A stretch of 64,000 nt of DNA from Gammaproteobacteria bacterium (GTDB lineage: Bacteria; Pseudomonadota; Gammaproteobacteria; Eutrophobiales; Eutrophobiaceae), in NCBI GenBank assembly GCA_965243205.1, contig CBDEUK010000002.1, positions 2,208,001-2,272,000 on the forward strand, given 5' to 3'. Positions 12,518-47,012 of this stretch are shown here, piece after piece. Below the pieces are notes generated by a model that saw only the letters and a list, made by a program, of their open reading frames with translations, was not told where the DNA came from and did no database searches. The position numbers and the translations under genes are program-made. How positions within the stretch are numbered: position 1 is the stretch's first letter; each line of letters begins with the position of its first letter.

Positions 12518-14587
12518 ATGAACTTAATTCATAATATTGTCTTATTTTCAGGATTTCTATTAGCTTTTAATGTCGTGAATGCCACGACAATTTATAAATG
12601 TAAGAGCCCTAATGGTTCGTTGAGCTATAGTCAATCTCCATGCTCAAATGGAGATACTTTGGTTAAAAGCAAGGATCTCTCTAAGCGATTAGGTAAGAAT
12701 GCTGAGAAGGCAAAAAAACGTTTGGAAAAGATATTAAAACGAAAGAATAATAAACTTAAAAAAAGACAAGAACGAAAAGAAAAGCGATTAGCTAAAAGAG
12801 CTGAAAGAAATAATAATGATGCTAGTCTTGGTTCAAACAATTCCAATAATTTATCAAATCAATTGGCTGATGCTAGTTCAGGTTCAAGTGGAGTAAACGC
12901 TAGTAACATCTCGATAGATAATAGTAATCAAGAAGAACCTTCAGAAGAAAATTTATCTGAACCAAAACGTTCCGATGTTTCTTTACCTCTTCAAGAGGTT
13001 ACGGAAGAAGCACCAGAAGTTCCTGTAACAACGGCTGATAACCAAGACACCGAGGCTCCAAGTTCTGGTGGAGGTAGTCCTAATGCAAGCTCAACTGAAA
13101 CGACTGTAAATGTTGGCGAATTATATGGTCCAATCGAATTTAAAATAATTAGTTGGCCACTAACCAAAGCTTATCCTGGATTGGAATACAATATCCGAAT
13201 GGGTGTTATAGGTGGGCAATATCCTTATCGTTATGAATTAGAGCAGTCACCTTCAGGTATGACAATTAATAATTATACTGGTGAGATAGCTTGGACACCG
13301 GATGCATCACTTGAAGATACTAGTGCTAATGTTAGTGTTATTGTTACAGATTCAACTGATGGGAAAATTAAACAAAATTTCAATATTAATGTCACTAAAG
13401 CCGGTTTCTATTTCGTTTCACCTAATGGAAATGATTCTTCAGGAAACGGAAGTATTGGTAAGCCATGGAAAACTATGGATACAGCCATTTCTCGTGCAGG
13501 AAGCGATGGTATTGTTTATTTGCGTGGTGGTTTATATAAAGGTGCTTTTACTCTAAAGAGCTCTGATTCGAATAAATGGATTGCATATCCAGGCGAAAAA
13601 CCTGTACTAGATTTGGATTTATCTACTTTAAGACCAGCTTCTGATTTTGGCTATATAGATGGGTTAGAAATAATAAATGCTCAAAGATGGGCTTTTTGTT
13701 TTACAGGTGAAGATAATTGGATTTTTAGAAGAAATCATATGCATCATTTATATGATGATTCAGATCGTGAAAACCCATCATTTATTTTCTTTTGGAACGA
13801 AGGTGGATCTCAAAATAGAGCTCACCAAAATATCGTAATACAAGATAATCTTTTTCATGATTTATATGATGAAGATCATCATCATGGTGGTTCAGTCATT
13901 ATGTATGATGTGTATCAATCACTTTATGAAGATAATGAAGCCTATAGTATTCATGGCGCAGGCGCTAAAGATAAAGATCATGGACAGTTCAATACATTTC
14001 GCGGTAATTATTTATATAATAATTCTACAGAAGCGTTTGCGATACAAAATCAAGGGTATAGCAATAATATAGAAATTTTATATAACGTATTTCATGGAAC
14101 AGTTATGTTTGGACAAGTAGAAGCTGAATTAAGTTATGTTCTATTTAGACATAATACGCTTAAAGGACAAATCATGCATAAGAATGCTAATCCTGTTGGC
14201 ACTGATAAAACTATTGTCATAATTGATAATATTATTTCTATGAAGAAAGCGGATGTATCATTAATTGAGGACCGAGCTGATGAGTATACTTATGAGGCAA
14301 TACCTTACTTATGTTGTGACGAAGCAGATGAAAAAGGTTTCACTAGTTCCGTTCTTTATAGGAATAGAAATTTAATTGATTTTGAGACAACATACATTGC
14401 TGGTTATGGTTATGGAAAAAATAGAACATTGGCAGAATGGCAAGCTTTGGGTTTCGATATAGACAGTATCTTTGCAGATCCACAGTTCAACGATGAAGGG
14501 TCTAGAGATTTCAGACCTAAATCATCTTCACCAGCATGTGGAAAAGCTCATGATGGCGGTGATATTGGAGCCTTACCTTGTCTTTAA
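12518..14587 (+). CDS. Secreted multidomain protein: DUF4124-like N-terminus, basic and acidic linkers, Ig/cadherin-like domain, right-handed beta-helix (polysaccharide lyase-like)
   Basis: Signal peptide; IYKCK..G..SYSQSPC; PSGMTIN..TGEIAWTP; YFVSPNGNDS.GNGSIGKPWKT...VYLRGGLY; repeated N-x-F/Y-H beta-helix turns; ADPQF...DFRP.SSSPA...DIGA C-terminus. Confidence 0.7.
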   Translation: MNLIHNIVLFSGFLLAFNVVNATTIYKCKSPNGSLSYSQSPCSNGDTLVKSKDLSKRLGKNAEKAKKRLEKILKRKNNKLKKRQERKEKRLAKRAERNNNDASLGSNNSNNLSNQLADASSGSSGVNASNISIDNSNQEEPSEENLSEPKRSDVSLPLQEVTEEAPEVPVTTADNQDTEAPSSGGGSPNASSTETTVNVGELYGPIEFKIISWPLTKAYPGLEYNIRMGVIGGQYPYRYELEQSPSGMTINNYTGEIAWTPDASLEDTSANVSVIVTDSTDGKIKQNFNINVTKAGFYFVSPNGNDSSGNGSIGKPWKTMDTAISRAGSDGIVYLRGGLYKGAFTLKSSDSNKWIAYPGEKPVLDLDLSTLRPASDFGYIDGLEIINAQRWAFCFTGEDNWIFRRNHMHHLYDDSDRENPSFIFFWNEGGSQNRAHQNIVIQDNLFHDLYDEDHHHGGSVIMYDVYQSLYEDNEAYSIHGAGAKDKDHGQFNTFRGNYLYNNSTEAFAIQNQGYSNNIEILYNVFHGTVMFGQVEAELSYVLFRHNTLKGQIMHKNANPVGTDKTIVIIDNIISMKKADVSLIEDRADEYTYEAIPYLCCDEADEKGFTSSVLYRNRNLIDFETTYIAGYGYGKNRTLAEWQALGFDIDSIFADPQFNDEGSRDFRPKSSSPACGKAHDGGDIGALPCL

Positions 14588-14630: not shown

Positions 14631-15758
14631 TTATGAAATTAATCGCTTAATAGATTTAAGTACGCTTTCTATTTTAAATGTGAGTTTGGGTCTTTTTAAT
14701 TTTGCCCATACTAAATCTATTTCTGAATTAGCAAACGATTTTTTATATTCTTCACCACCAGCTAAGAAATCATAAGAGTCAATATTATTTTTCCAGTAAT
14801 ATTCAATTGCAAGCCAATGAGCAATAAAGCCAGGTTTAAATTTATTATCTTCTAAGTAATTAAAACCAGATTGAATATTATAGACCTTATTTTTATAGAC
14901 TAAATTATATAAATAACCGATTGTAAAATCGCCAGCGGTTATCTTCAGAATATCTACTTGATTGTTGCTTATTTCATTTTTAATAAGATCTATATTGAAG
15001 TTTACCCAATTATTATTAGCAAAAGCTCCCGGCAATCCTTTTTTTTGCCAATATTCAGTATGGAGTTCTTTCATCCTTTCAAAATAATCTATAGCTTCTT
15101 GCTGATTACTTGCAGATGAAATAGTGATTTCATCATATAGTTTTTCTATGTACTTAATCGAACGATTAATCTGAGAACGTTTATTACTACTTAGTAAAGA
15201 CTGTTTAAGTTCTTTTGATGAATTATATTTGCCTTGCTCTAATTGAGCTTGTCTCGAAACTCCTGTATCGACAATTTCAAACTCAAGTCCGATTTTATCC
15301 TGTATTAATTTAAATTTTTCAGATTCTACAGCATTAAAAACTATTTCATCCCATGACTTATTTAATTCTAGAAAATTAGTAAATAGTTTAGTGACAGGTA
15401 ATTCATAACCAGGTGCTATTAATATTTGATTATATTCAATCACCATATTTAAACGATTTGCACAAATCTCGTTTAAAAATACTTGCCTTGAAGTTACAAA
15501 TTTATGACGTTTTTCTTTGTGTAATATTAAAAAAACTGCGGCGACTATTTTTTCATTCTCATAAACGAGAAATAAATTGGTATTAACTTTATCATGTATT
15601 AATTTTAGCCACGGTCCAATCCAAATCCAACTTACAAACACATTATTATTTTCTGGATTAACTTGATCCCAATATGCTTTAGCATCTTCATAGCTTGGAT
15701 TTTCCACTAAAACGCCAACAAGATTCTCTTGTTCAATTCTTTTATGTTCAAAATTCAT
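14631..15758 (-). CDS. GNAT-family (CelD/BcsL-like) acyltransferase
   Basis: FVSWIWI..W, RSQINRS, YNIQSGF, KPGFIAH, YDFLAGGEEYKKS. Confidence 0.78.
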   Translation of the reverse strand: MNFEHKRIEQENLVGVLVENPSYEDAKAYWDQVNPENNNVFVSWIWIGPWLKLIHDKVNTNLFLVYENEKIVAAVFLILHKEKRHKFVTSRQVFLNEICANRLNMVIEYNQILIAPGYELPVTKLFTNFLELNKSWDEIVFNAVESEKFKLIQDKIGLEFEIVDTGVSRQAQLEQGKYNSSKELKQSLLSSNKRSQINRSIKYIEKLYDEITISSASNQQEAIDYFERMKELHTEYWQKKGLPGAFANNNWVNFNIDLIKNEISNNQVDILKITAGDFTIGYLYNLVYKNKVYNIQSGFNYLEDNKFKPGFIAHWLAIEYYWKNNIDSYDFLAGGEEYKKSFANSEIDLVWAKLKRPKLTFKIESVLKSIKRLIS

Positions 15759-15770
15759 ACGTAAATAATT

Positions 15771-17177
15771 TTAAGGGATGTTTTTTACTATAGAAGGGCC
15801 AATTGTATTGCTAATAATTAAAGGTAATTTTTTCCAGGTTGAAATTAGTAATTTATATTTTGCATTGTTTGGGTTTATTTCAGGCAATTCTTCTCCTTTT
15901 GGCAGCCAATAATTCCAATAGTTTTGAAAAGGTTCAGCTCCCCATTGTTTTTTGAAATTAAAAGTACCGCTATGTTTGCTTGAACGTCCGAAATCAAAAA
16001 ACTCATAATTATTTTCAATGGCAAAATTGAGTATGTTCCAATACATGAACATATTTATACCCGAACGGTTCGTCTTTTTTAAAGCAGAGGCCCAAGGTAT
16101 CTCTAACATCTCTTTATAACCTAATAATAGGGCGCATGCTACTGCTTCTTGATTAATGTAGACAACTACAATATGAGTTTTTTCATACCATGCATCCAGA
16201 ACTCGAAAAAAAAATTCTTTGCTGTAGACAGGAGTGCCTAAATCACGCATATTGGTTGAAAAGACTTTATAAAAATCATGAATTAATTCTTGTTTGCCTA
16301 TTTTTATTTGAGGCTGTTCGATTTTACTGCGTTGAATCTGAGCACGTAATTTAGTTCCTAATTCTTTAGAAAAAGTTTCAGTAGATTTAGGTAATCTACG
16401 TATCATTGAGACTTTCTCTTGTTTGGTAATCAAGTCAGTACGTTTTTTAAGTTCTCTAATTTCAATATGCTCAAGGTTTAAGGCTTGAGCTGTTTCTATT
16501 GCAGAATCAACTAAGCGAGTTTCGATTTCCTTATTATCTGCTATTGGACCTCCATAATTAAAATATGGCATAGAAACGACAAAATCGCCAAACAGCATAC
16601 TTTTAAGCCTGATTAAAGGTAAATAACCTTTCAATTGATTACTTTGATTGATAGCTACAATCGACATATCTTCATGCCTAAATAAAGAAGATATTAATCT
16701 CCGCCAGCATGAAAAATGATATGGCGTAGAATGAGAATGGTTTTCCACATAATCATCAATAACAGAGTCTTCTATCTTATCAGCAGGGATAATATTTATA
16801 GCTGTTAAAGTATCTAATAATGAAGTGTCTTCGGCAGCAGTGAATCTTGTAGGCAAAGGATTTTTTAATTCAAGATTTTCAAATAAGTTTTTTATTAAAT
16901 TTTCTTGATTCGATTTTTTTTCTTTTAGTGTATTTAGATTCTTTTTAATCGAAGATTGTTCATCGATTATATGTTTAAAGTCTTTTCCTTCTTTTTTTAG
17001 CTTGCCTATTTTTGATGATAATATTTTTTTGTTTTCATTTAGTTTTTTAATATCATCGATAATAGTTTGTAAGATATTTAATTCTAATTCTAATGATTGA
17101 GGTATTTCGTCAAACTCTTGCCATATGACGAGAAGATTGTTGCCTATGTTTTTGAGAAGTTTTTCATGAGCCTGCAT
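15771..17177 (-). CDS. FemAB-family XrtA/PEP-CTERM-associated protein (TIGR03019-like) with an extra N-terminal coiled-coil arm
   Basis: LFGDFVVSMPYFNYGGP, KLRAQI, NMRDLGTPVY, FDFGRS...GTFNFKKQWGA, NPNNAKY..I..WKKLP; extra ~110 aa at the N-terminus. Confidence 0.88.
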   Translation of the reverse strand: MQAHEKLLKNIGNNLLVIWQEFDEIPQSLELELNILQTIIDDIKKLNENKKILSSKIGKLKKEGKDFKHIIDEQSSIKKNLNTLKEKKSNQENLIKNLFENLELKNPLPTRFTAAEDTSLLDTLTAINIIPADKIEDSVIDDYVENHSHSTPYHFSCWRRLISSLFRHEDMSIVAINQSNQLKGYLPLIRLKSMLFGDFVVSMPYFNYGGPIADNKEIETRLVDSAIETAQALNLEHIEIRELKKRTDLITKQEKVSMIRRLPKSTETFSKELGTKLRAQIQRSKIEQPQIKIGKQELIHDFYKVFSTNMRDLGTPVYSKEFFFRVLDAWYEKTHIVVVYINQEAVACALLLGYKEMLEIPWASALKKTNRSGINMFMYWNILNFAIENNYEFFDFGRSSKHSGTFNFKKQWGAEPFQNYWNYWLPKGEELPEINPNNAKYKLLISTWKKLPLIISNTIGPSIVKNIP

Positions 17178-18067
17178 TATGCCACTAACTCATTTATATT
17201 AATTGTCGGCCCATTAAAATTACTCAAAGCATCACTCACATAGGTGAATTGAAAATCATTTGTTAAATTATCTAATCTATGCATGCATTTTTCTAAATTG
17301 TTATAGTGGCGAAACCTCGATAATAAACTGGCGCCTTCAACACGTGGTTGCTCAGGATCCACTTCCCAAGGATGGAGATAAAAGATAGCAGGATTATTTT
17401 TGCTGGCGTTCTTAAGTAAAGTACGTGATAACCAATAAGGAAATAACCGAAAATAACCACCACCAGCAGCAGGCAATTTAAAACCCATAAATTTTGCTGT
17501 GGTTAGAGGAAGCTCTTTTATAAGTTTGCCATTGGATGTTTTTATATAGTAAGGGGTTGTGGGGCTTGTCGGTATACCATATTTATCATGATGAATAGGG
17601 AATATACTGGAATCCCATTCATAGCCTGCATCAGCCAATATATCCAGAGCCCATAGTGATTTTGGAGTGATGGAATACGAAGCTGCCCGATATCCAGTAA
17701 CAGGTTTTTGGATAATATCTTCTAATAACTGCTTAGATTTGATGGCTTCTTCTTTAAAGACTTCTTGAGTTTGTTTATAAATTATCTGATGGCTGTAACC
17801 ATGAGAAGCAATTTCATGTCCTGAGTCAGCAATAAATTTGACTAAATTTGGGTAGCGTTCGGCTACCCATCCTAGAATAAAAAAAGTGGCGGTGAGATTT
17901 TTTTTCTCAAATAAATTGAGTAGAGTTTCAGTATTATTTTCAACTCGGGTTTCATAGTTTGGCCAATCACTAGGATCAATGGCATTTTCAAAGGCAGCAA
18001 CGTGAAAATAGTCTTCTACATCTACCGTCATTGCACATGGGTGGCTAAATTGCTGTGTCTTGTTCAC
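17177..18067 (-). CDS. XrtA-system polysaccharide deacetylase (TIGR03006/DUF3473-like)
   Basis: TVDVEDYFHV, ATFFILGWVAER, HEIASHGYSH, GYRA.SYSI, GGGYFRL, FYLHPWEVDP. Confidence 0.92.
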   Translation of the reverse strand: MNKTQQFSHPCAMTVDVEDYFHVAAFENAIDPSDWPNYETRVENNTETLLNLFEKKNLTATFFILGWVAERYPNLVKFIADSGHEIASHGYSHQIIYKQTQEVFKEEAIKSKQLLEDIIQKPVTGYRAASYSITPKSLWALDILADAGYEWDSSIFPIHHDKYGIPTSPTTPYYIKTSNGKLIKELPLTTAKFMGFKLPAAGGGYFRLFPYWLSRTLLKNASKNNPAIFYLHPWEVDPEQPRVEGASLLSRFRHYNNLEKCMHRLDNLTNDFQFTYVSDALSNFNGPTININELVA

Positions 18068-20014: not shown

Positions 20015-21430
20015 ATGAAGTATATTGCATTACTTGCAATCAATGTGTACTTTTTTTTAGTTTTTAATAGCGGAATATGTAAACTTTATGAATATTGGAT
20101 AGATGTTCAAGGTTCCATATTATATGGAGTCTTTATATTTATATTAGCCATTTATTTATATTGTGAACGTTTAGGGAAGGTTTCTTTTAGAGAAAATAAC
20201 CAGATAACAGTTCTTGTATCAATTCTATTAATTAGTTTTTTTTATGCTGTCTCAGTATATTGCGGAATTGAACTATTTCAGTTCTTAGCGTTTTGGATTG
20301 CATTAATATTATTACAATTTGCATTATTTAATTATAAAAGCGCAGTCTATATAAGTCCTGCAATATTATTTTTAATATTCTGTTTTCCTGTTTTTGAATA
20401 TTTAAATCCTCTTTTGATTAGACTCAGTAATGATGCTGTTTCATTGTTACTTTCTTTTACCAATCTCAGTGTTAATGTAGATGGAAATATTATCTATCTT
20501 CCTTATGGTAATTTGGAAATTACTGATGGTTGTTCTGGCGTTCGTTATTTGGTCACCTCATTAGCATTGGCTTTTTTTATGGTGTTAACATCAAAAATAA
20601 ATATAAAGAAAACAGCCTTGTTAATTATTTTGGCTATAGGTTTAGGATTACTATTTAATTGGATCAGGATATTTATTTTAGTCTTAATTGCTTATGACTC
20701 TAAGATGCAGTCGGAATTGGTTTATGATCACGAAACATTTGGATGGTTATTGTATTCTGTAGTTATTGTTATTTTAGCTTATATCTATATTAAGCTAGAT
20801 TCGCTAGAAAAAATTAAAATATCAAGCTTCAATTCAAACAAAAAAATATATTGGCTAAATTTTGTAGTTTTATCCTTAGTAATAAGTTTGGGTGTTAATG
20901 TTATAAATATAATCCCACAAAATTATAATAAACCCGAGATAAAAAATATTTCCAATTGGGCATTAGATTCGTCACCTAGTCATAATGAATCTAAAGATCG
21001 TTTTAAATTAAAATATATCTATAGTGACATTGCGACTTCAAATGTTATGAGTAGTAGCCATGTAAACTGGAGATCGAAAGAAGGTGAGGATTTGGTGCCA
21101 TATATATCAGATCTTGAGTCAGATCAAAAATGGCAAAAATACATGAGAAAAAATATTTTAATTAATTCATCTACAGTTCAATATATTTTACAAAAGAATA
21201 AAATAACTAATGAAGACAGAATCAAAATAATCTTTTTTGAGATAGATAATAAAATAATCAATTCTTACCAAAAAGCAAAATTATTACAAATACCTGCTTT
21301 CTTTAGACAAAATAATTATTTTGCATATCATCAGTTAATTATTAATTGTAAATATAATGGATGTGATAAAGAAGAAGGTAAAGTTCTCAATGCAGCTCAA
21401 AACCTGTTAAAAGAACTTACAGTGTATTAA
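20015..21430 (+). CDS. xrtA: Exosortase (EpsH/XrtA type) with C-terminal EpsI-like domain
   Basis: Multi-TM protein with the catalytic Cys/Arg/His triad in ITDGCSGVRYL, NWIRI and DHETFGW; C-terminal soluble domain with AKLLQIP. The subtype is inferred from neighbouring genes. Confidence 0.82.
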   Translation: MKYIALLAINVYFFLVFNSGICKLYEYWIDVQGSILYGVFIFILAIYLYCERLGKVSFRENNQITVLVSILLISFFYAVSVYCGIELFQFLAFWIALILLQFALFNYKSAVYISPAILFLIFCFPVFEYLNPLLIRLSNDAVSLLLSFTNLSVNVDGNIIYLPYGNLEITDGCSGVRYLVTSLALAFFMVLTSKINIKKTALLIILAIGLGLLFNWIRIFILVLIAYDSKMQSELVYDHETFGWLLYSVVIVILAYIYIKLDSLEKIKISSFNSNKKIYWLNFVVLSLVISLGVNVINIIPQNYNKPEIKNISNWALDSSPSHNESKDRFKLKYIYSDIATSNVMSSSHVNWRSKEGEDLVPYISDLESDQKWQKYMRKNILINSSTVQYILQKNKITNEDRIKIIFFEIDNKIINSYQKAKLLQIPAFFRQNNYFAYHQLIINCKYNGCDKEEGKVLNAAQNLLKELTVY

Positions 21431-22419
21431 TTCCAACACGATAAGCGCGCTAAAAAGTTTAGCTTTGTTGAACTAACATCTTCATGTACACCAACACGTT
21501 TAAGTTTATGTAGCACTTGGTTAGTATCGTTAATACCTGATTGAGTTGTTACCGCAGCGGAATAATTGTTTTGTACTAGCTCAGCGCTATAGTCGCTATA
21601 ATCGCCATTGGGATAGCAAAACAATGAAGCAGTATGAGAAGCTTTAGAGTTAATTTCTTTTTGACACCCCAGAACTTCATCTTCTATGAGTTCTTTTGAG
21701 ATGTTATCTTGCAAACGAATATGATGTTTTGTATGACCGCCAAAATCGATTAAACTTGAATCAAGCATATCTTGAATTTCTTGCCAGTTAAGCAGTTGTC
21801 GATTGCGTGAATCTAAATTTAATTCTGTTTCAACATTATCGAGCCAATCATTTAGTTCCGAGTCTAAGTAATGTTTTGCTTTGGCAATAACATCTGAAAT
21901 TTCAGATATATCAGAGTTTTTATTAATATCGAGTTTTTTTCTAAGATTCTCGAGATGCTCAGATTTTAGATTATGATCATCTAATTGAGTAGATATTGAC
22001 GCTAAACGATTAGGCCAAAATATTTTGTTAGTGCCCATCATACTGCTAACCAAAAATATGGTCGCTGATAACTGATGTTGTTTTAAAATAGGAAAAGCAT
22101 ATTGATAGTTATCTTGCCAGCCATCATCAAATGTGATCGCAAAATAATTACCAGGTGATAATGTATTATCATTTTTATGGTCAACCCAATCAGAGAGTTT
22201 AATGGGCTCCATGATTTCTTTTAACCATGTTAGATGGTTGCTAAATGTTTCTGGAGTGACATACATTCCAGGTTCTTCATTCAATTCTTTTGCTATTTCA
22301 GTAGGTAAAACGCGGTGATACATGAGTATCCAAAGCTTTGCTTCATTTGTTTTTTTTGTATGAGCCCCAAGTTTAGCCGCTATTGAATTGAAAATATTTT
22401 TTAAACTACGTTTTATCAT
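21427..22419 (-). CDS. Polysaccharide deacetylase (CE4/NodB)
   Basis: ILMYHRV, AITFDDGWQDN, ATIFL, GHTKHH, FCYPNG. Confidence 0.88.
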   Translation of the reverse strand: MIKRSLKNIFNSIAAKLGAHTKKTNEAKLWILMYHRVLPTEIAKELNEEPGMYVTPETFSNHLTWLKEIMEPIKLSDWVDHKNDNTLSPGNYFAITFDDGWQDNYQYAFPILKQHQLSATIFLVSSMMGTNKIFWPNRLASISTQLDDHNLKSEHLENLRKKLDINKNSDISEISDVIAKAKHYLDSELNDWLDNVETELNLDSRNRQLLNWQEIQDMLDSSLIDFGGHTKHHIRLQDNISKELIEDEVLGCQKEINSKASHTASLFCYPNGDYSDYSAELVQNNYSAAVTTQSGINDTNQVLHKLKRVGVHEDVSSTKLNFLARLSCWN

Positions 22420-46920: not shown

Positions 46921-47012
46921 GGAGAGGTGGCCGAGCGGCTGAAGGCGCTCCCCTGCTAAGGGAGTATACGGTTTATCCCGTATCGAGGGTTCGAATCCCT
47001 CTCTCTCCGCCA
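46921..47012 (+). tRNA. tRNA-Ser(GCT)
   Basis: GGAGAG acceptor stem, CTCCC-CTGCTAA-GGGAG anticodon arm, long variable arm, GGTTCGAATCC, encoded CCA. Confidence 0.97.

What the first reader, a model, noticed from the sequence alone, without database searches (positions are those of the whole stretch)
16850..17070. FemAB-like protein fused to a seryl-tRNA-synthetase-like tRNA-binding arm
Seen: the N-terminal extension DIKKLNENKKILSSKIGKLKKEGKDFKHIIDEQSSIKKNLNTLKEKK...LIKNLFENLELKNPLP. By eye it follows the SerRS N-terminal antiparallel coiled coil (pattern L.AERN.LSKEIG..KK.G.D...L..E...LKE.I...E....LL.IPN.P). Known: that arm reads the long variable arm of tRNA-Ser, and Fem ligases use aminoacyl-tRNA as donor. 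Inference: a Ser-tRNA-dependent transferase that serylates an exopolysaccharide or its lipid-linked unit, i.e. a non-ribosomal use of aa-tRNA in Gram-negative EPS synthesis.
Basis: partly seen in the sequence, partly recalled or inferred. Interest (0 to 1): 0.7.

Follow-up and report, generated by a model that had tools for sequence, protein, structure and literature searches.

The report
Fem transferase carrying a SerRS arm
An enzyme in a slime-sugar (exopolysaccharide) gene cluster belongs to the Fem family, which takes amino acids from charged tRNA, and it carries at its front end a true relative of the tRNA-gripping arm of seryl-tRNA synthetase, so it probably decorates the sugar with serine taken from tRNA.

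Summary
ORF 15771..17177 (-), 468 aa, has a TIGR03019 XrtA/PEP-CTERM FemAB core at aa 136-468 and a 135-aa N-terminal extension.

The extension is a genuine homologue of the SerRS N-terminal arm, not a generic coiled coil.
- An HMM built from 112 homologues' extensions hits only two of 8174 ORFs in the own genome: the protein itself and the real SerRS (E 3.3e-10, positions 28-101 against 28-101, no gaps).
- An arm-only profile finds SerRS as the nine best PDB sequences (E 1e-12 to 8e-5).
- hhalign against 28 SerRS arms gives 98.3% probability. Reversed and shuffled controls give 4% or less.
- Pfam Seryl_tRNA_N hits 51 of 66 diverse arm-bearing members.

The core matches only aa-tRNA-dependent transferases in PDB and keeps the FemX Lys305 equivalent (K409).

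The arm occurs in about half of the family near this protein (65 of 150 cluster representatives, 41 of 80 species genomes). Nearly all carriers are Gammaproteobacteria, on one side of the core tree.

The donor (Ser-tRNASer) and the acceptor (a de-N-acetylated EPS sugar) remain inferences. I found no paper describing this architecture. I rate it a new variant of a known kind: staphylococcal FemA/FmhB carry a coiled coil at a different position.

The parts
15771..17177 (-). Whole gene: 468-aa protein with a SerRS-type arm followed by a FemAB-family (TIGR03019) core; the stop codon is at 15771-15773
   Evidence: ORF list. TIGR03019 matches aa 140-468 with E 9.5e-104, 347 bits, cut-off 260.35. The AF2 model has mean pLDDT 94.4 and pTM 0.88. 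It is the only TIGR03019 match in the genome.
17115..17177 (-). aa 1-21: two short N-terminal helices (H2-11, H13-21) that precede the hairpin, as in the SerRS N-terminal domain
   Evidence: AF2 secondary structure. PDB SerRS chains align from profile positions 5-11 to chain residues 9-15 in several cases.
16989..17099 (-). aa 27-63: first long helix of the antiparallel hairpin; it ends in the conserved LS(S/R)xIGxxKK motif
   Evidence: AF2 helix H27-63 with pLDDT 97-98. Conserved motif in the A1 and A3 consensus. Aligned without gaps to SerRS.
16977..16988 (-). aa 64-67 (EGKD): tip of the hairpin, equivalent to the G-E-D turn of SerRS arms
   Evidence: AF2 turn at 64-67. Alignment to the own SerRS and to PDB SerRS.
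16869..16976 (-). aa 68-103: second long helix of the hairpin
   Evidence: AF2 helix H68-103. The stretch aa 40-95 across the tip is 56 residues in 107 of 107 homologues that span it, and in 26 of 28 SerRS.
16773..16868 (-). aa 104-135: linker between arm and core, with the conserved LPxRF element; lower confidence
   Evidence: pLDDT 76-77 in blocks 101-130. Consensus LPxRF.
15774..16772 (-). aa 136-468: tandem-GNAT Fem core
   Evidence: The best Foldseek matches are W. viridescens FemX (E 8.6e-15, TMt 0.70), S. aureus FemX, Sbb17/Sba18, FemA and MprF/aaPGS. Core profile A4 against PDB gives 8 hits at E <= 0.01, all aa-tRNA-dependent transferases.
15951..15953 (-). Codon of Lys409 in the invariant FKKQWG motif; it aligns with Lys305 of W. 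viridescens FemX
   Evidence: F408, K409, Q411, W412 and G413 are invariant in 120 of 120 sequences. The HMM alignment places the family FK on FemX residues 304-305. Lys305 is described as the catalytic residue in PMC12945691 (passages).
17177..18067 (-). Upstream gene: XrtA-system polysaccharide deacetylase (TIGR03006), whose stop overlaps the start of the Fem gene; it is the proposed maker of the free sugar amine
   Evidence: TIGR03006 E 2.4e-119, 397.5 bits, cut-off 276.2. TAATG overlap. A deacetylase lies directly upstream on the same strand in 32 of 80 related loci. Deacetylase-Fem fusions exist in relatives P0243, P0223 and P0185.
14631..15758 (-). Downstream gene 12 bases away: 375-aa Acetyltransf_6 protein, possibly a distant Fem-like paralogue that acts next (second residue or N-acetylation)
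   Evidence: Pfam PF13480 E 1.3e-19. No NCBIfam family. No PDB sequence hit. A weak but collinear hhalign match to the Fem core (276 columns, E 0.0033, probability 9.6%) pairs YKKSF with FKKQWG.
20015..21430 (+). Exosortase XrtA of the same locus (context)
   Evidence: TIGR03109 E 8.6e-40, below its cut-off. TIGR02602 exosortase 109 bits, above its cut-off of 105.55. Pfam Exosortase_EpsH E 1.9e-40.

Best explanation
The gene encodes an aminoacyl-tRNA-dependent transferase of the Fem family that works inside an XrtA/PEP-CTERM exopolysaccharide pathway. In one gammaproteobacterial branch of the family it has acquired, at its N terminus, a copy of the helical-hairpin arm of seryl-tRNA synthetase.

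Proposed mechanism:
1. The arm grips the long variable arm and elbow of tRNASer, as it does in SerRS. This selects Ser-tRNASer as donor and holds it while the 3' end enters the Fem active site.
2. Lys409, the equivalent of FemX Lys305, supports transfer of the seryl group.
3. The acceptor is most probably the free amine of a hexosamine in the lipid-linked repeat unit or the polymer, exposed by the translationally coupled deacetylase. The product would be an N-seryl amino sugar.
4. The 375-aa GNAT-like neighbour may extend or cap that group.

Shown here:
- homology of the arm to SerRS
- Fem membership of the core and conservation of the catalytic Lys
- the arm's hairpin fold and its fixed length
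- its family-wide conservation and clade restriction
- the locus context

Inferred:
- tRNA binding by the arm (my estimate about 0.8)
- an aa-tRNA donor (about 0.8)
- serine as the amino acid (about 0.55-0.6)
- a sugar amine as acceptor (about 0.5)
For: Arm is homologous to the SerRS arm:
- The extension HMM hits only itself and the genuine SerRS among 8174 ORFs of the own genome. The SerRS match has E 3.3e-10, HMM positions 28-101 against SerRS residues 28-101, with no gaps.
- The whole-family profile A1 puts SerRS in the 6 best PDB positions, ahead of FemX. Among the 13 best there are 8 SerRS and 5 FemX.
- The arm-only profile A3 puts SerRS in the 9 best positions, E 1.1e-12 to 7.6e-5.
- hhalign gives 98.3% against 4.0% or less in 21 controls.
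- PF02403 hits 51 of 66 arm-bearing members at E <= 0.01, best 2e-10. Every other coiled-coil family hits only 1 member.
- BLASTP to the own SerRS gives 12 of 38 identical residues, E 4e-4, in register.

Fold:
- AF2 predicts helices H27-63 and H68-103 with pLDDT 97-98.
- In the arm-only Foldseek search, ranks 1-11 and 13 are SerRS chains, with rmsd 0.7-2.7 A over 70-77 columns for seven of them.
- The hairpin length across the tip is invariant: 107 of 107 homologues, the same 56 residues as in 26 of 28 SerRS.

Core is a Fem enzyme:
- TIGR03019 scores 347 bits.
- Foldseek gives FemX at 8.6e-15, followed by other aa-tRNA enzymes.
- All 8 PDB sequence hits are aa-tRNA-dependent.
- K409 is invariant and aligns with FemX Lys305.

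Precedents for a coiled coil serving tRNA recognition in Fem enzymes:
- The FemA coiled coil at residues 246-307 is described as 'found in SerRS' (PMC5370406, figure 10 legend).
- The FmhB coiled coil is proposed to contact the T and D loops (PMC7826273, Discussion passage).

Sugar acceptor:
- The start codon overlaps the stop of the TIGR03006 deacetylase gene.
- A deacetylase lies directly upstream in 32 of 80 loci.
- Relatives carry the Fem core fused to deacetylase or GT4 glycosyltransferase domains.
- Sbb17/Sba18 (solved with streptothrisamine bound) and Orf11 (Gly-tRNAGly-dependent conversion of streptothrisamine to glycylthricin, PMC12945691) show Fem-like enzymes acting on streptothrisamine.
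- N-aminoacyl amino sugars occur in bacterial glycans, including N-acetyl-L-seryl-Qui3N and L-alanyl-GlcN (PMC10609480, table passages).
Against: - No experiment exists on any TIGR03019 member that I could find.
- The query alone is below Pfam's threshold for PF02403 (17.5 against 28.2 bits).
- Shape alone does not discriminate. In the Foldseek-independent search, SerRS (Z 11.0) is tied with many unrelated helical hairpins at Z 10-11. All Foldseek E-values for the arm are 0.12 or worse.
- In SerRS the arm acts within a dimer and together with the catalytic domain. Whether an isolated arm still selects tRNASer is unknown.
- About half of the family lacks the arm (75 of 150 representatives, 39 of 80 genomes). 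The arm is therefore not needed for the chemistry, and the donor of the arm-less forms is unknown.
- Only 11 of the 41 arm-bearing loci have the deacetylase directly upstream, and 24 of 41 show none within the DNA held.
- The genome has only the three ordinary tRNASer genes and no dedicated isoacceptor.
- Acetyl-CoA enzymes (VipF) also appear among the structural matches of the core, at E about 1e-10.
Confidence: 0.5

Rival explanations
1. The arm is a tRNA-binding module, but it does not impose serine. It grips the tRNA elbow or another long-variable-arm tRNA (Leu, Tyr) in a general way, as proposed for the staphylococcal Fem coiled coil, and the enzyme transfers another amino acid such as Ala or Gly.
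For: - Staphylococcal FmhB/FemA use a coiled coil with Gly-tRNAGly (PMC7826273 passage).
- Known glycans carry alanyl, glycyl, threonyl and aspartyl groups as well as seryl groups on amino sugars (PMC10609480 table).
- The arms are highly diverged, with 23% mean column identity.
- The genome also has five tRNALeu and one tRNATyr with long variable arms.
Against: - The arm is homologous to SerRS specifically. It is unrelated in sequence to the FemA/FmhB insert: no Fem chain appears among the 45 PDB hits of the arm profile at E <= 1.
- Its length across the tip is fixed at the SerRS value. That fits retention of the original ligand geometry.
Confidence: 0.25
2. The donor is Ser-tRNA (or another aa-tRNA), but the acceptor is not the polysaccharide. 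It is a PEP-CTERM protein, a lipid head group, or a small molecule.
For: - MprF/aaPGS-type lipid aminoacylases are among the structural relatives of the core.
- The genome encodes PEP-CTERM proteins, with 3 matches over the cut-off.
- 24 of 41 arm-bearing loci show no deacetylase in the DNA held.
Against: - The start codon is coupled to the deacetylase gene here.
- A deacetylase lies directly upstream in 32 of 80 loci.
- Relatives are fused to deacetylase or GT4 domains.
- The protein has no membrane domain like that of MprF (AF2 secondary structure).
Confidence: 0.15
3. The extension is just a structural coiled coil (oligomerisation or a spacer) with chance resemblance to SerRS, and the enzyme is an acyl-CoA-dependent GNAT acetyltransferase.
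For: - The best Pfam hit is Acetyltransf_6, and the single-sequence PF02403 hit is below threshold, equalled by NPV_P10.
- Fold comparison cannot separate SerRS from other hairpins.
Against: - Specific SerRS hits in four independent profile tests with controls.
- All PDB sequence relatives of the core use aa-tRNA.
- The FemX catalytic Lys is invariant.
Confidence: 0.07

Closest known systems
Staphylococcus aureus FemA and FmhB (FemX), PDB 1LRZ and 6SNR
   Same: - Tandem-GNAT Fem fold with aa-tRNA as donor.
- Carries an antiparallel two-helix coiled coil that has been likened to SerRS and proposed to contact the tRNA T and D loops (PMC5370406 figure legend; PMC7826273).
- Best PDB sequence hit of the core profile: 6SNR, E 5.7e-17.
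   Different: - There the coiled coil is an insertion in domain 2, at FemA residues 246-307. Here that insertion is absent: the core profile skips roughly FmhB 220-304.
- Here the arm is an N-terminal domain collinear with the SerRS N terminus and detectably homologous to it in sequence.
- The arm profile hits no Fem chain in PDB.
- Different acceptor (lipid II peptide against, presumably, an EPS sugar), different donor (Gly), and a different host type (Gram-positive).
Seryl-tRNA synthetase N-terminal domain (Pfam PF02403)
   Same: - Homologous sequence: E 1e-12 against PDB SerRS, 98.3% by hhalign.
- Same position at the N terminus and same hairpin length.
- Same S-K/R-x-I-G-x-x-K...G-x-D tip motif.
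   Different: - No class II catalytic domain follows. It is replaced by a Fem core.
- The query alone scores below the Pfam cut-off.
- Binding to tRNASer is not shown.
Weissella viridescens FemX and arm-less TIGR03019 proteins
   Same: Same core without any coiled coil and the same catalytic Lys. Arm-less TIGR03019 members sit in the same XrtA loci, next to the same deacetylase.
   Different: - They lack the arm. FemX Wv recognises only the acceptor arm of tRNAAla (PMC7826273 passage).
- The arm-bearing proteins lie on one side of a single branch of the core tree.
Sbb17/Sba18/Orf11 aminoacyl-tRNA-dependent peptide synthases of streptothricin-type pathways (PDB 9WQW-9WQY)
   Same: Fem-like enzymes that act on streptothrisamine. 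Orf11 is described as Gly-tRNAGly-dependent (PMC12945691 passage). Sbb17/Sba18 are core sequence hits at E 7e-9 and Foldseek hits at E 4e-12.
   Different: They act on a small-molecule antibiotic intermediate in Streptomyces. Chain lengths are 285-288 residues in Foldseek and 311-312 in the sequence search, too short to hold an added SerRS arm.

Membership tests
FemABX aminoacyl-tRNA transferases / TIGR03019 pepcterm_femAB | Score above the curated cut-off of the family model | tested here: met
   TIGR03019 scores 347 bits against a cut-off of 260.35, over aa 140-468. The Pfam FemAB and FemAB_like models alone are below their cut-offs (16.4 and 21.1 bits).
FemABX aminoacyl-tRNA transferases / TIGR03019 pepcterm_femAB | Tandem GNAT fold superposable on solved Fem enzymes | tested here: met
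   The AF2 model has pLDDT 94.4. Foldseek gives FemX Wv at E 8.6e-15 and TMt 0.70, followed by FemX Sa, Sbb17 and FemA.
FemABX aminoacyl-tRNA transferases / TIGR03019 pepcterm_femAB | Conserved active-site Lys (FemX Wv Lys305) in the F-K motif | tested here: met
   K409 is invariant in 120 of 120 sequences and aligns with FemX residues 304-305. The role of Lys305 comes from PMC12945691.
FemABX aminoacyl-tRNA transferases / TIGR03019 pepcterm_femAB | Uses aminoacyl-tRNA as acyl donor | not testable with these tools
   Needs an enzyme assay. It is supported only by homology: all 8 PDB sequence hits are aa-tRNA enzymes.
FemABX aminoacyl-tRNA transferases / TIGR03019 pepcterm_femAB | Location in an XrtA/PEP-CTERM exopolysaccharide locus | tested here: met
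   The neighbouring genes match TIGR03013, 03027, 03007, 03018 (230.2 bits, just under its 230.65 cut-off), 03016, 03015 and 03006, plus an exosortase.
Seryl_tRNA_N (PF02403) tRNA-binding arm | Sequence match to the family | tested here: met
   - Query alone: 17.5 bits, below the cut-off of 28.2.
- Family level: 51 of 66 members hit at E <= 0.01, best 2e-10.
- The profile finds SerRS at E 1.1e-12.
- hhalign gives 98.3% with controls at 4% or less.
- SerRS is the only other hit in the own genome.
Seryl_tRNA_N (PF02403) tRNA-binding arm | Long antiparallel two-helix hairpin at the N terminus, with the length seen in SerRS | tested here: met
   Helices H27-63 and H68-103. The stretch across the tip is 56 residues in 107 of 107 homologues and in 26 of 28 SerRS. 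Fold searches are consistent but not discriminating.
Seryl_tRNA_N (PF02403) tRNA-binding arm | Binds the long variable arm and elbow of tRNASer | not testable with these tools
   No protein-RNA modelling or assay was available. The role of the arm in SerRS is recalled textbook knowledge.
Seryl-tRNA synthetase (the enzyme) | Class II catalytic core following the arm | tested here: not met
   No class II synthetase domain appears in the Pfam or NCBIfam scans of the protein. The genuine SerRS lies elsewhere in the genome, in L001, at 425 aa.

The most novel reading that the evidence does not exclude
The Fem-SerRS-arm enzyme may build the missing acceptor of the exosortase system. In Gram-positive bacteria, FemXAB build the glycine bridge whose free amino group receives sortase substrates. 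By analogy, here the deacetylase would expose a sugar amine and the Fem enzyme would add serine from Ser-tRNASer. The new alpha-amino group on the exopolysaccharide or its lipid-linked unit would then be the nucleophile to which XrtA transfers PEP-CTERM proteins. This would make tRNA-dependent aminoacylation the step that couples protein sorting to EPS in Gram-negative bacteria.
Probability: 0.1. Interest if true: 0.85.

Novelty: new variant of a known kind. Interest (0 to 1): 0.62.

Why it matters
The FemAB-like gene is a standard member of XrtA/PEP-CTERM loci, but in the literature I could search it appears only as an annotation. Its donor, acceptor and purpose are open.

A SerRS-derived arm on the enzyme is a built-in hint about the donor. 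It turns 'FemAB-related protein' into a concrete and cheap prediction: RNase-sensitive transfer of serine from tRNASer to a deacetylated sugar.

If the prediction is right, three things follow:
- It would be a tRNA-dependent modification of an exopolysaccharide, for which I found no description in the papers searched.
- It would supply an enzymology for the N-aminoacyl amino sugars catalogued in surface glycans.
- It would be a clear case of an aminoacyl-tRNA synthetase recognition module being re-used by a non-ribosomal aa-tRNA consumer. It would also be a second, independent way for Fem enzymes to have acquired a coiled-coil tRNA handle.

Tried and rejected
- Word-based homologue search restricted to aa 1-140 found only the protein itself: 1 hit among 862 candidates. 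The arm is too diverged for 5-residue words. This gave no information and was superseded by profile methods.
- The single-sequence Pfam hit is sub-threshold and equalled by NPV_P10, so it cannot be used alone.
- Foldseek on the arm-only model: SerRS ranks first, but all E-values are 0.12 or worse.
- VIA-align against 48,161 chains: SerRS 6x94_A has Z 11.0 (95 residues aligned, rmsd 3.3) but is tied with unrelated hairpins at Z 10-11. Fold cannot prove the relationship, so I rest the case on sequence profiles.
- Dedicated tRNA: none found. The genome has 42 tRNAs, three of them tRNASer, and no tRNASec. The tRNASer(gct) in the window is about 30 kb away, and I treat that as coincidence.
- A split arm in arm-less loci: none found. 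Only L055 shows an arm ORF, separated from the core ORF by an in-frame stop.
- The 375-aa neighbour against PDB sequences: no hit at E <= 1. hhalign to the Fem core is weak, at probability 9.6%.
- Literature: the first FemA search matched 'female' and was useless. Searches found no paper linking PEP-CTERM FemAB proteins to tRNA or SerRS. In Haft 2006 (PMC1569441), a term search for Fem, tRNA and TIGR03019 found no mention in the text.
- The Benson 2002 FemA paper itself was not read. Only its reference entry and a later figure legend quoting it were seen.
- Supplements were not consulted.
- I did not run complex prediction, because the report does not claim a protein-protein contact.
Full report
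**What is there.** The finding lies in ORF 15771..17177 on the minus strand, 468 aa. The quoted residues are aa 42-110, and the stated coordinates cover aa 36-109. The ATG shares its A with the TAA stop of the upstream gene (TAATG), so the long N terminus belongs to the reading frame that begins at the coupled start. NCBIfam assigns aa 140-468 to TIGR03019, the FemAB-family XrtA/PEP-CTERM-associated protein (E 9.5e-104, 347 bits, cut-off 260). The upstream gene is the XrtA-system polysaccharide deacetylase TIGR03006 (397.5 bits). The surrounding 20 kb is a canonical XrtA/PEP-CTERM exopolysaccharide cluster: priming glycosyltransferase, export protein, chain-length determinant, tyrosine kinase, outer-membrane protein, ATPase, flippase and exosortase. 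The genome (2.79 Mb, two contigs) has one TIGR03019 gene and three PEP-CTERM domain matches over the cut-off.

**Is the resemblance to SerRS more than chance?** On the single sequence the answer is unclear. Pfam Seryl_tRNA_N matches aa 39-101 in the right register (model positions 41-103 of 108). The score is only 17.5 bits against a cut-off of 28.2, and the unrelated coiled-coil family NPV_P10 scores 17.7. A word-based search with aa 1-140 found only the protein itself. The whole-protein search changed the picture. There are 3077 relatives at E <= 1e-10. Of the 120 best, 113 carry an N-terminal extension of 84 residues or more, and many carry a precomputed PF02403 label. That list is biased towards arm-bearers, because the query includes the arm.

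I then ran four tests that use the family rather than the single sequence.
1. An HMM of the extension from 112 homologues, with the query left out, was searched against all 8174 stop-to-stop ORFs of at least 60 aa in the own low-GC genome. At E <= 10 it returned two hits. One is the protein itself (1.8e-23). The other is the genuine SerRS (3.3e-10, 39 bits), with HMM positions 28-101 against SerRS residues 28-101 and no gap. No other coiled coil of the genome appears.
2. Against the 177,635 distinct PDB sequences, the whole-family profile ranks SerRS first to sixth, ahead of FemX. An arm-only profile built from the window plus 40 species genomes ranks SerRS first to ninth (E 1.1e-12 to 7.6e-5). 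The first unrelated protein is at 0.0022.
3. Pfam run separately on 66 arm-bearing proteins (the query plus 65 representatives of 50%-identity clusters) hits PF02403 in 51 at E <= 0.01, best 2e-10. Each other coiled-coil family hits one member.
4. hhalign of the arm alignment against an alignment of 28 SerRS N termini from the same class gives probability 98.3%, E 1.5e-14, over 76 gap-free columns. The reversed SerRS alignment gives 2.3%, and the best of 20 column shuffles gives 4.0%.

The shared core is the end of helix 1, the tip and helix 2. The family consensus there reads LSRqIGeaKk.G.D...L...M...S and lies on the SerRS S-K-x-I-G-x-x-K...G-E-D segment. I conclude that the extension is a homologue of the SerRS N-terminal domain.

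**Structure.** AlphaFold2 with the 120-sequence alignment gives mean pLDDT 94.4 and pTM 0.88.
- Two short helices (aa 2-21) are followed by a hairpin of two long helices (aa 27-63 and 68-103, pLDDT 97-98).
- A less confident linker runs to about aa 135, followed by a tandem-GNAT core.
- An arm-only model reproduces the hairpin.
- In Foldseek, ranks 1-11 and 13 for the arm are SerRS chains, but E-values are 0.12-0.70.
- In the Foldseek-independent VIA search, SerRS (Z 11.0, 95 residues aligned) is tied with many unrelated hairpins at Z 10-11.

Shape is therefore consistent with SerRS but proves nothing. One structural feature is informative. The 56 residues across the tip (aa 40-95) have exactly that length in 107 of 107 homologues that span them, despite 23% mean identity among arms. 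The same length holds in 26 of 28 SerRS. A fixed reach is what one expects if the arm still measures the same ligand.

**The core.** Foldseek places the core next to W. viridescens FemX (E 8.6e-15, TMt 0.70). Next come S. aureus FemX and FemA, the Sbb17/Sba18 aa-tRNA-dependent peptide synthases and the MprF/aaPGS lipid aminoacylases. Acetyl-CoA enzymes such as VipF come later, at about 1e-10. A profile of the query core plus 60 arm-less relatives hits eight PDB sequences at E <= 0.01, and all eight are aa-tRNA-dependent transferases. The invariant FKKQWG motif (F408 and K409 invariant in 120 of 120) aligns with FemX Wv residues 304-305. Lys305 is described as the catalytic residue of that enzyme (PMC12945691, passages). 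The same alignment shows that the family lacks the coiled-coil insertion of staphylococcal FmhB in domain 2.

**Distribution.** A search with the core only, which is unbiased for the arm, against 1.84 billion cluster representatives gave 5787 relatives at E <= 0.001. Of the 150 best:
- 65 have the arm by my HMM;
- 75 have no room for it;
- 10 have other N-terminal material.

Among 80 species genomes, 41 have the arm. In one of them, L055, an in-frame stop separates the arm from the core. By record title, 37 of the 41 are Gammaproteobacteria, 3 are unclassified Pseudomonadota, and 1 is labelled Verrucomicrobiota. The 39 arm-less loci include 19 Gammaproteobacteria, plus Nitrospirota, Bacteroidota, Thermodesulfobacteriota and others. 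A FastTree tree was built from core columns only (146 rows; five fragments dropped: P0164, P0181, P0191, P0204, P0245). On it, arm presence needs 7 changes, against 45-53 in the five printed of 200 shuffles. All 65 arm-bearers lie on one side of a single branch of 80 tips, printed support 90. This fits one acquisition and a few losses or mis-called starts, although the root is not known.

**Context and acceptor.**
- A TIGR03006-type deacetylase lies directly upstream on the same strand in 32 of 80 loci (11 arm-bearing, 21 arm-less). It lies elsewhere in the locus in 11, and is not seen in the DNA held in 37.
- Some relatives have the Fem core fused to polysaccharide deacetylase domains (P0243, P0223, P0185) or to GT4 glycosyltransferases (P0224, P0238, P0240, P0263).
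- In Rubrivivax the FemAB-related gene also follows the deacetylase gene (PMC3684757, table passage).
- Orf11 is described as Gly-tRNAGly-dependent on streptothrisamine (PMC12945691), and Sbb17/Sba18 are solved with streptothrisamine bound.
- N-aminoacyl amino sugars are known components of bacterial surface glycans. They include L-alanyl-GlcN, N-acetyl-L-seryl-Qui3N, N-acetyl-L-threonyl-FucN and N-acetyl-glycyl-Qui4N (PMC10609480, table passages; PMC2905691).

Together these make a de-N-acetylated sugar the most likely acceptor, but this is inference. The 375-aa Acetyltransf_6 protein 12 bases downstream aligns weakly but collinearly with the Fem core, including a YKKSF counterpart of FKKQWG. 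It could add a second residue or cap the amine.

**Donor.** The genome has three ordinary tRNASer genes, no tRNASec and no spare isoacceptor. The case for serine rests on the origin of the arm. In SerRS this domain is the element that recognises the long variable arm of tRNASer (recalled textbook knowledge). Staphylococcal Fem enzymes are thought to use their non-homologous coiled coil on the tRNA elbow, while FemX Wv, which lacks a coiled coil, reads only the acceptor arm (PMC7826273; PMC5370406, figure legend). An arm that keeps SerRS sequence features and SerRS length in front of an aa-tRNA transferase is most simply a tRNASer handle. My estimates are about 0.8 for tRNA binding and 0.55-0.6 for serine.

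**Comparison and novelty.** It works like FemA/FmhB, a Fem core plus a coiled-coil tRNA handle. The handle is a different piece, in a different place, with a traceable origin in SerRS, and the pathway is Gram-negative EPS synthesis. My library searches found no paper on this architecture or on the function of any TIGR03019 protein. The library lacks most subscription journals. The PF02403 label is already visible in precomputed domain tables, so the architecture is discoverable in databases. I rate it a new variant of a known kind, interest 0.62.

**Verdict.** The donor and acceptor remain to be shown at the bench.

Noticed in passing
window 14631-15758 (-): A 375-aa Acetyltransf_6 protein lies 12 bases downstream of the Fem gene. 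It has no NCBIfam family and no PDB sequence hit. It aligns weakly but collinearly with the Fem core, pairing YKKSF with FKKQWG. Homologues lie within the DNA held in 9 of 41 arm-bearing and 2 of 39 arm-less loci.
   Followed up: partly
L055 5932-6468 and 6472-7263 (+): In this Pseudomonadota MAG the arm ORF and the Fem-core ORF are in the same frame but separated by a single stop codon. This could be a pseudogene, a sequencing error or read-through; I did not resolve which.
   Followed up: no
relatives P0224, P0238, P0240, P0263, P0243, P0223, P0185, P0254: Some TIGR03019-like cores are fused to other domains: GT4 glycosyltransferases, polysaccharide deacetylase/DUF3473 domains and, in one case, an AMP-binding C-terminal domain. 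These fusions tie the family to sugar chemistry.
   Followed up: partly
window 12518-14587 (+): A 689-aa protein inside the EPS cluster has no NCBIfam family. It has only DUF4124 at its N terminus and one He_PIG Ig-like domain.
   Followed up: no
window 20015-21430 (+): The exosortase is 471 aa, but the exosortase models cover only about aa 6-260. The roughly 210-aa C-terminal part has no Pfam hit at E <= 0.001. The XrtA-specific model scores below its cut-off (136.8 against 208 bits).
   Followed up: no
window 21427-22419 (-): There is a second polysaccharide deacetylase, resembling the PgaB N-terminal domain, at the edge of the cluster. The locus therefore has two candidate enzymes for exposing sugar amines.
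   Followed up: no
window 46921-47012 (+): tRNA-Ser(gct), one of only three tRNASer genes in the genome, lies about 30 kb from the Fem gene, next to tRNA-Arg(acg). This is probably coincidence.
   Followed up: partly
L008 5329-7392 (+): The only arm-bearing locus outside Pseudomonadota is labelled an uncultured Verrucomicrobiaceae MAG. It has a 688-aa open frame overlapping the deacetylase frame. Possible explanations are binning error, horizontal transfer or a longer fusion.
   Followed up: no
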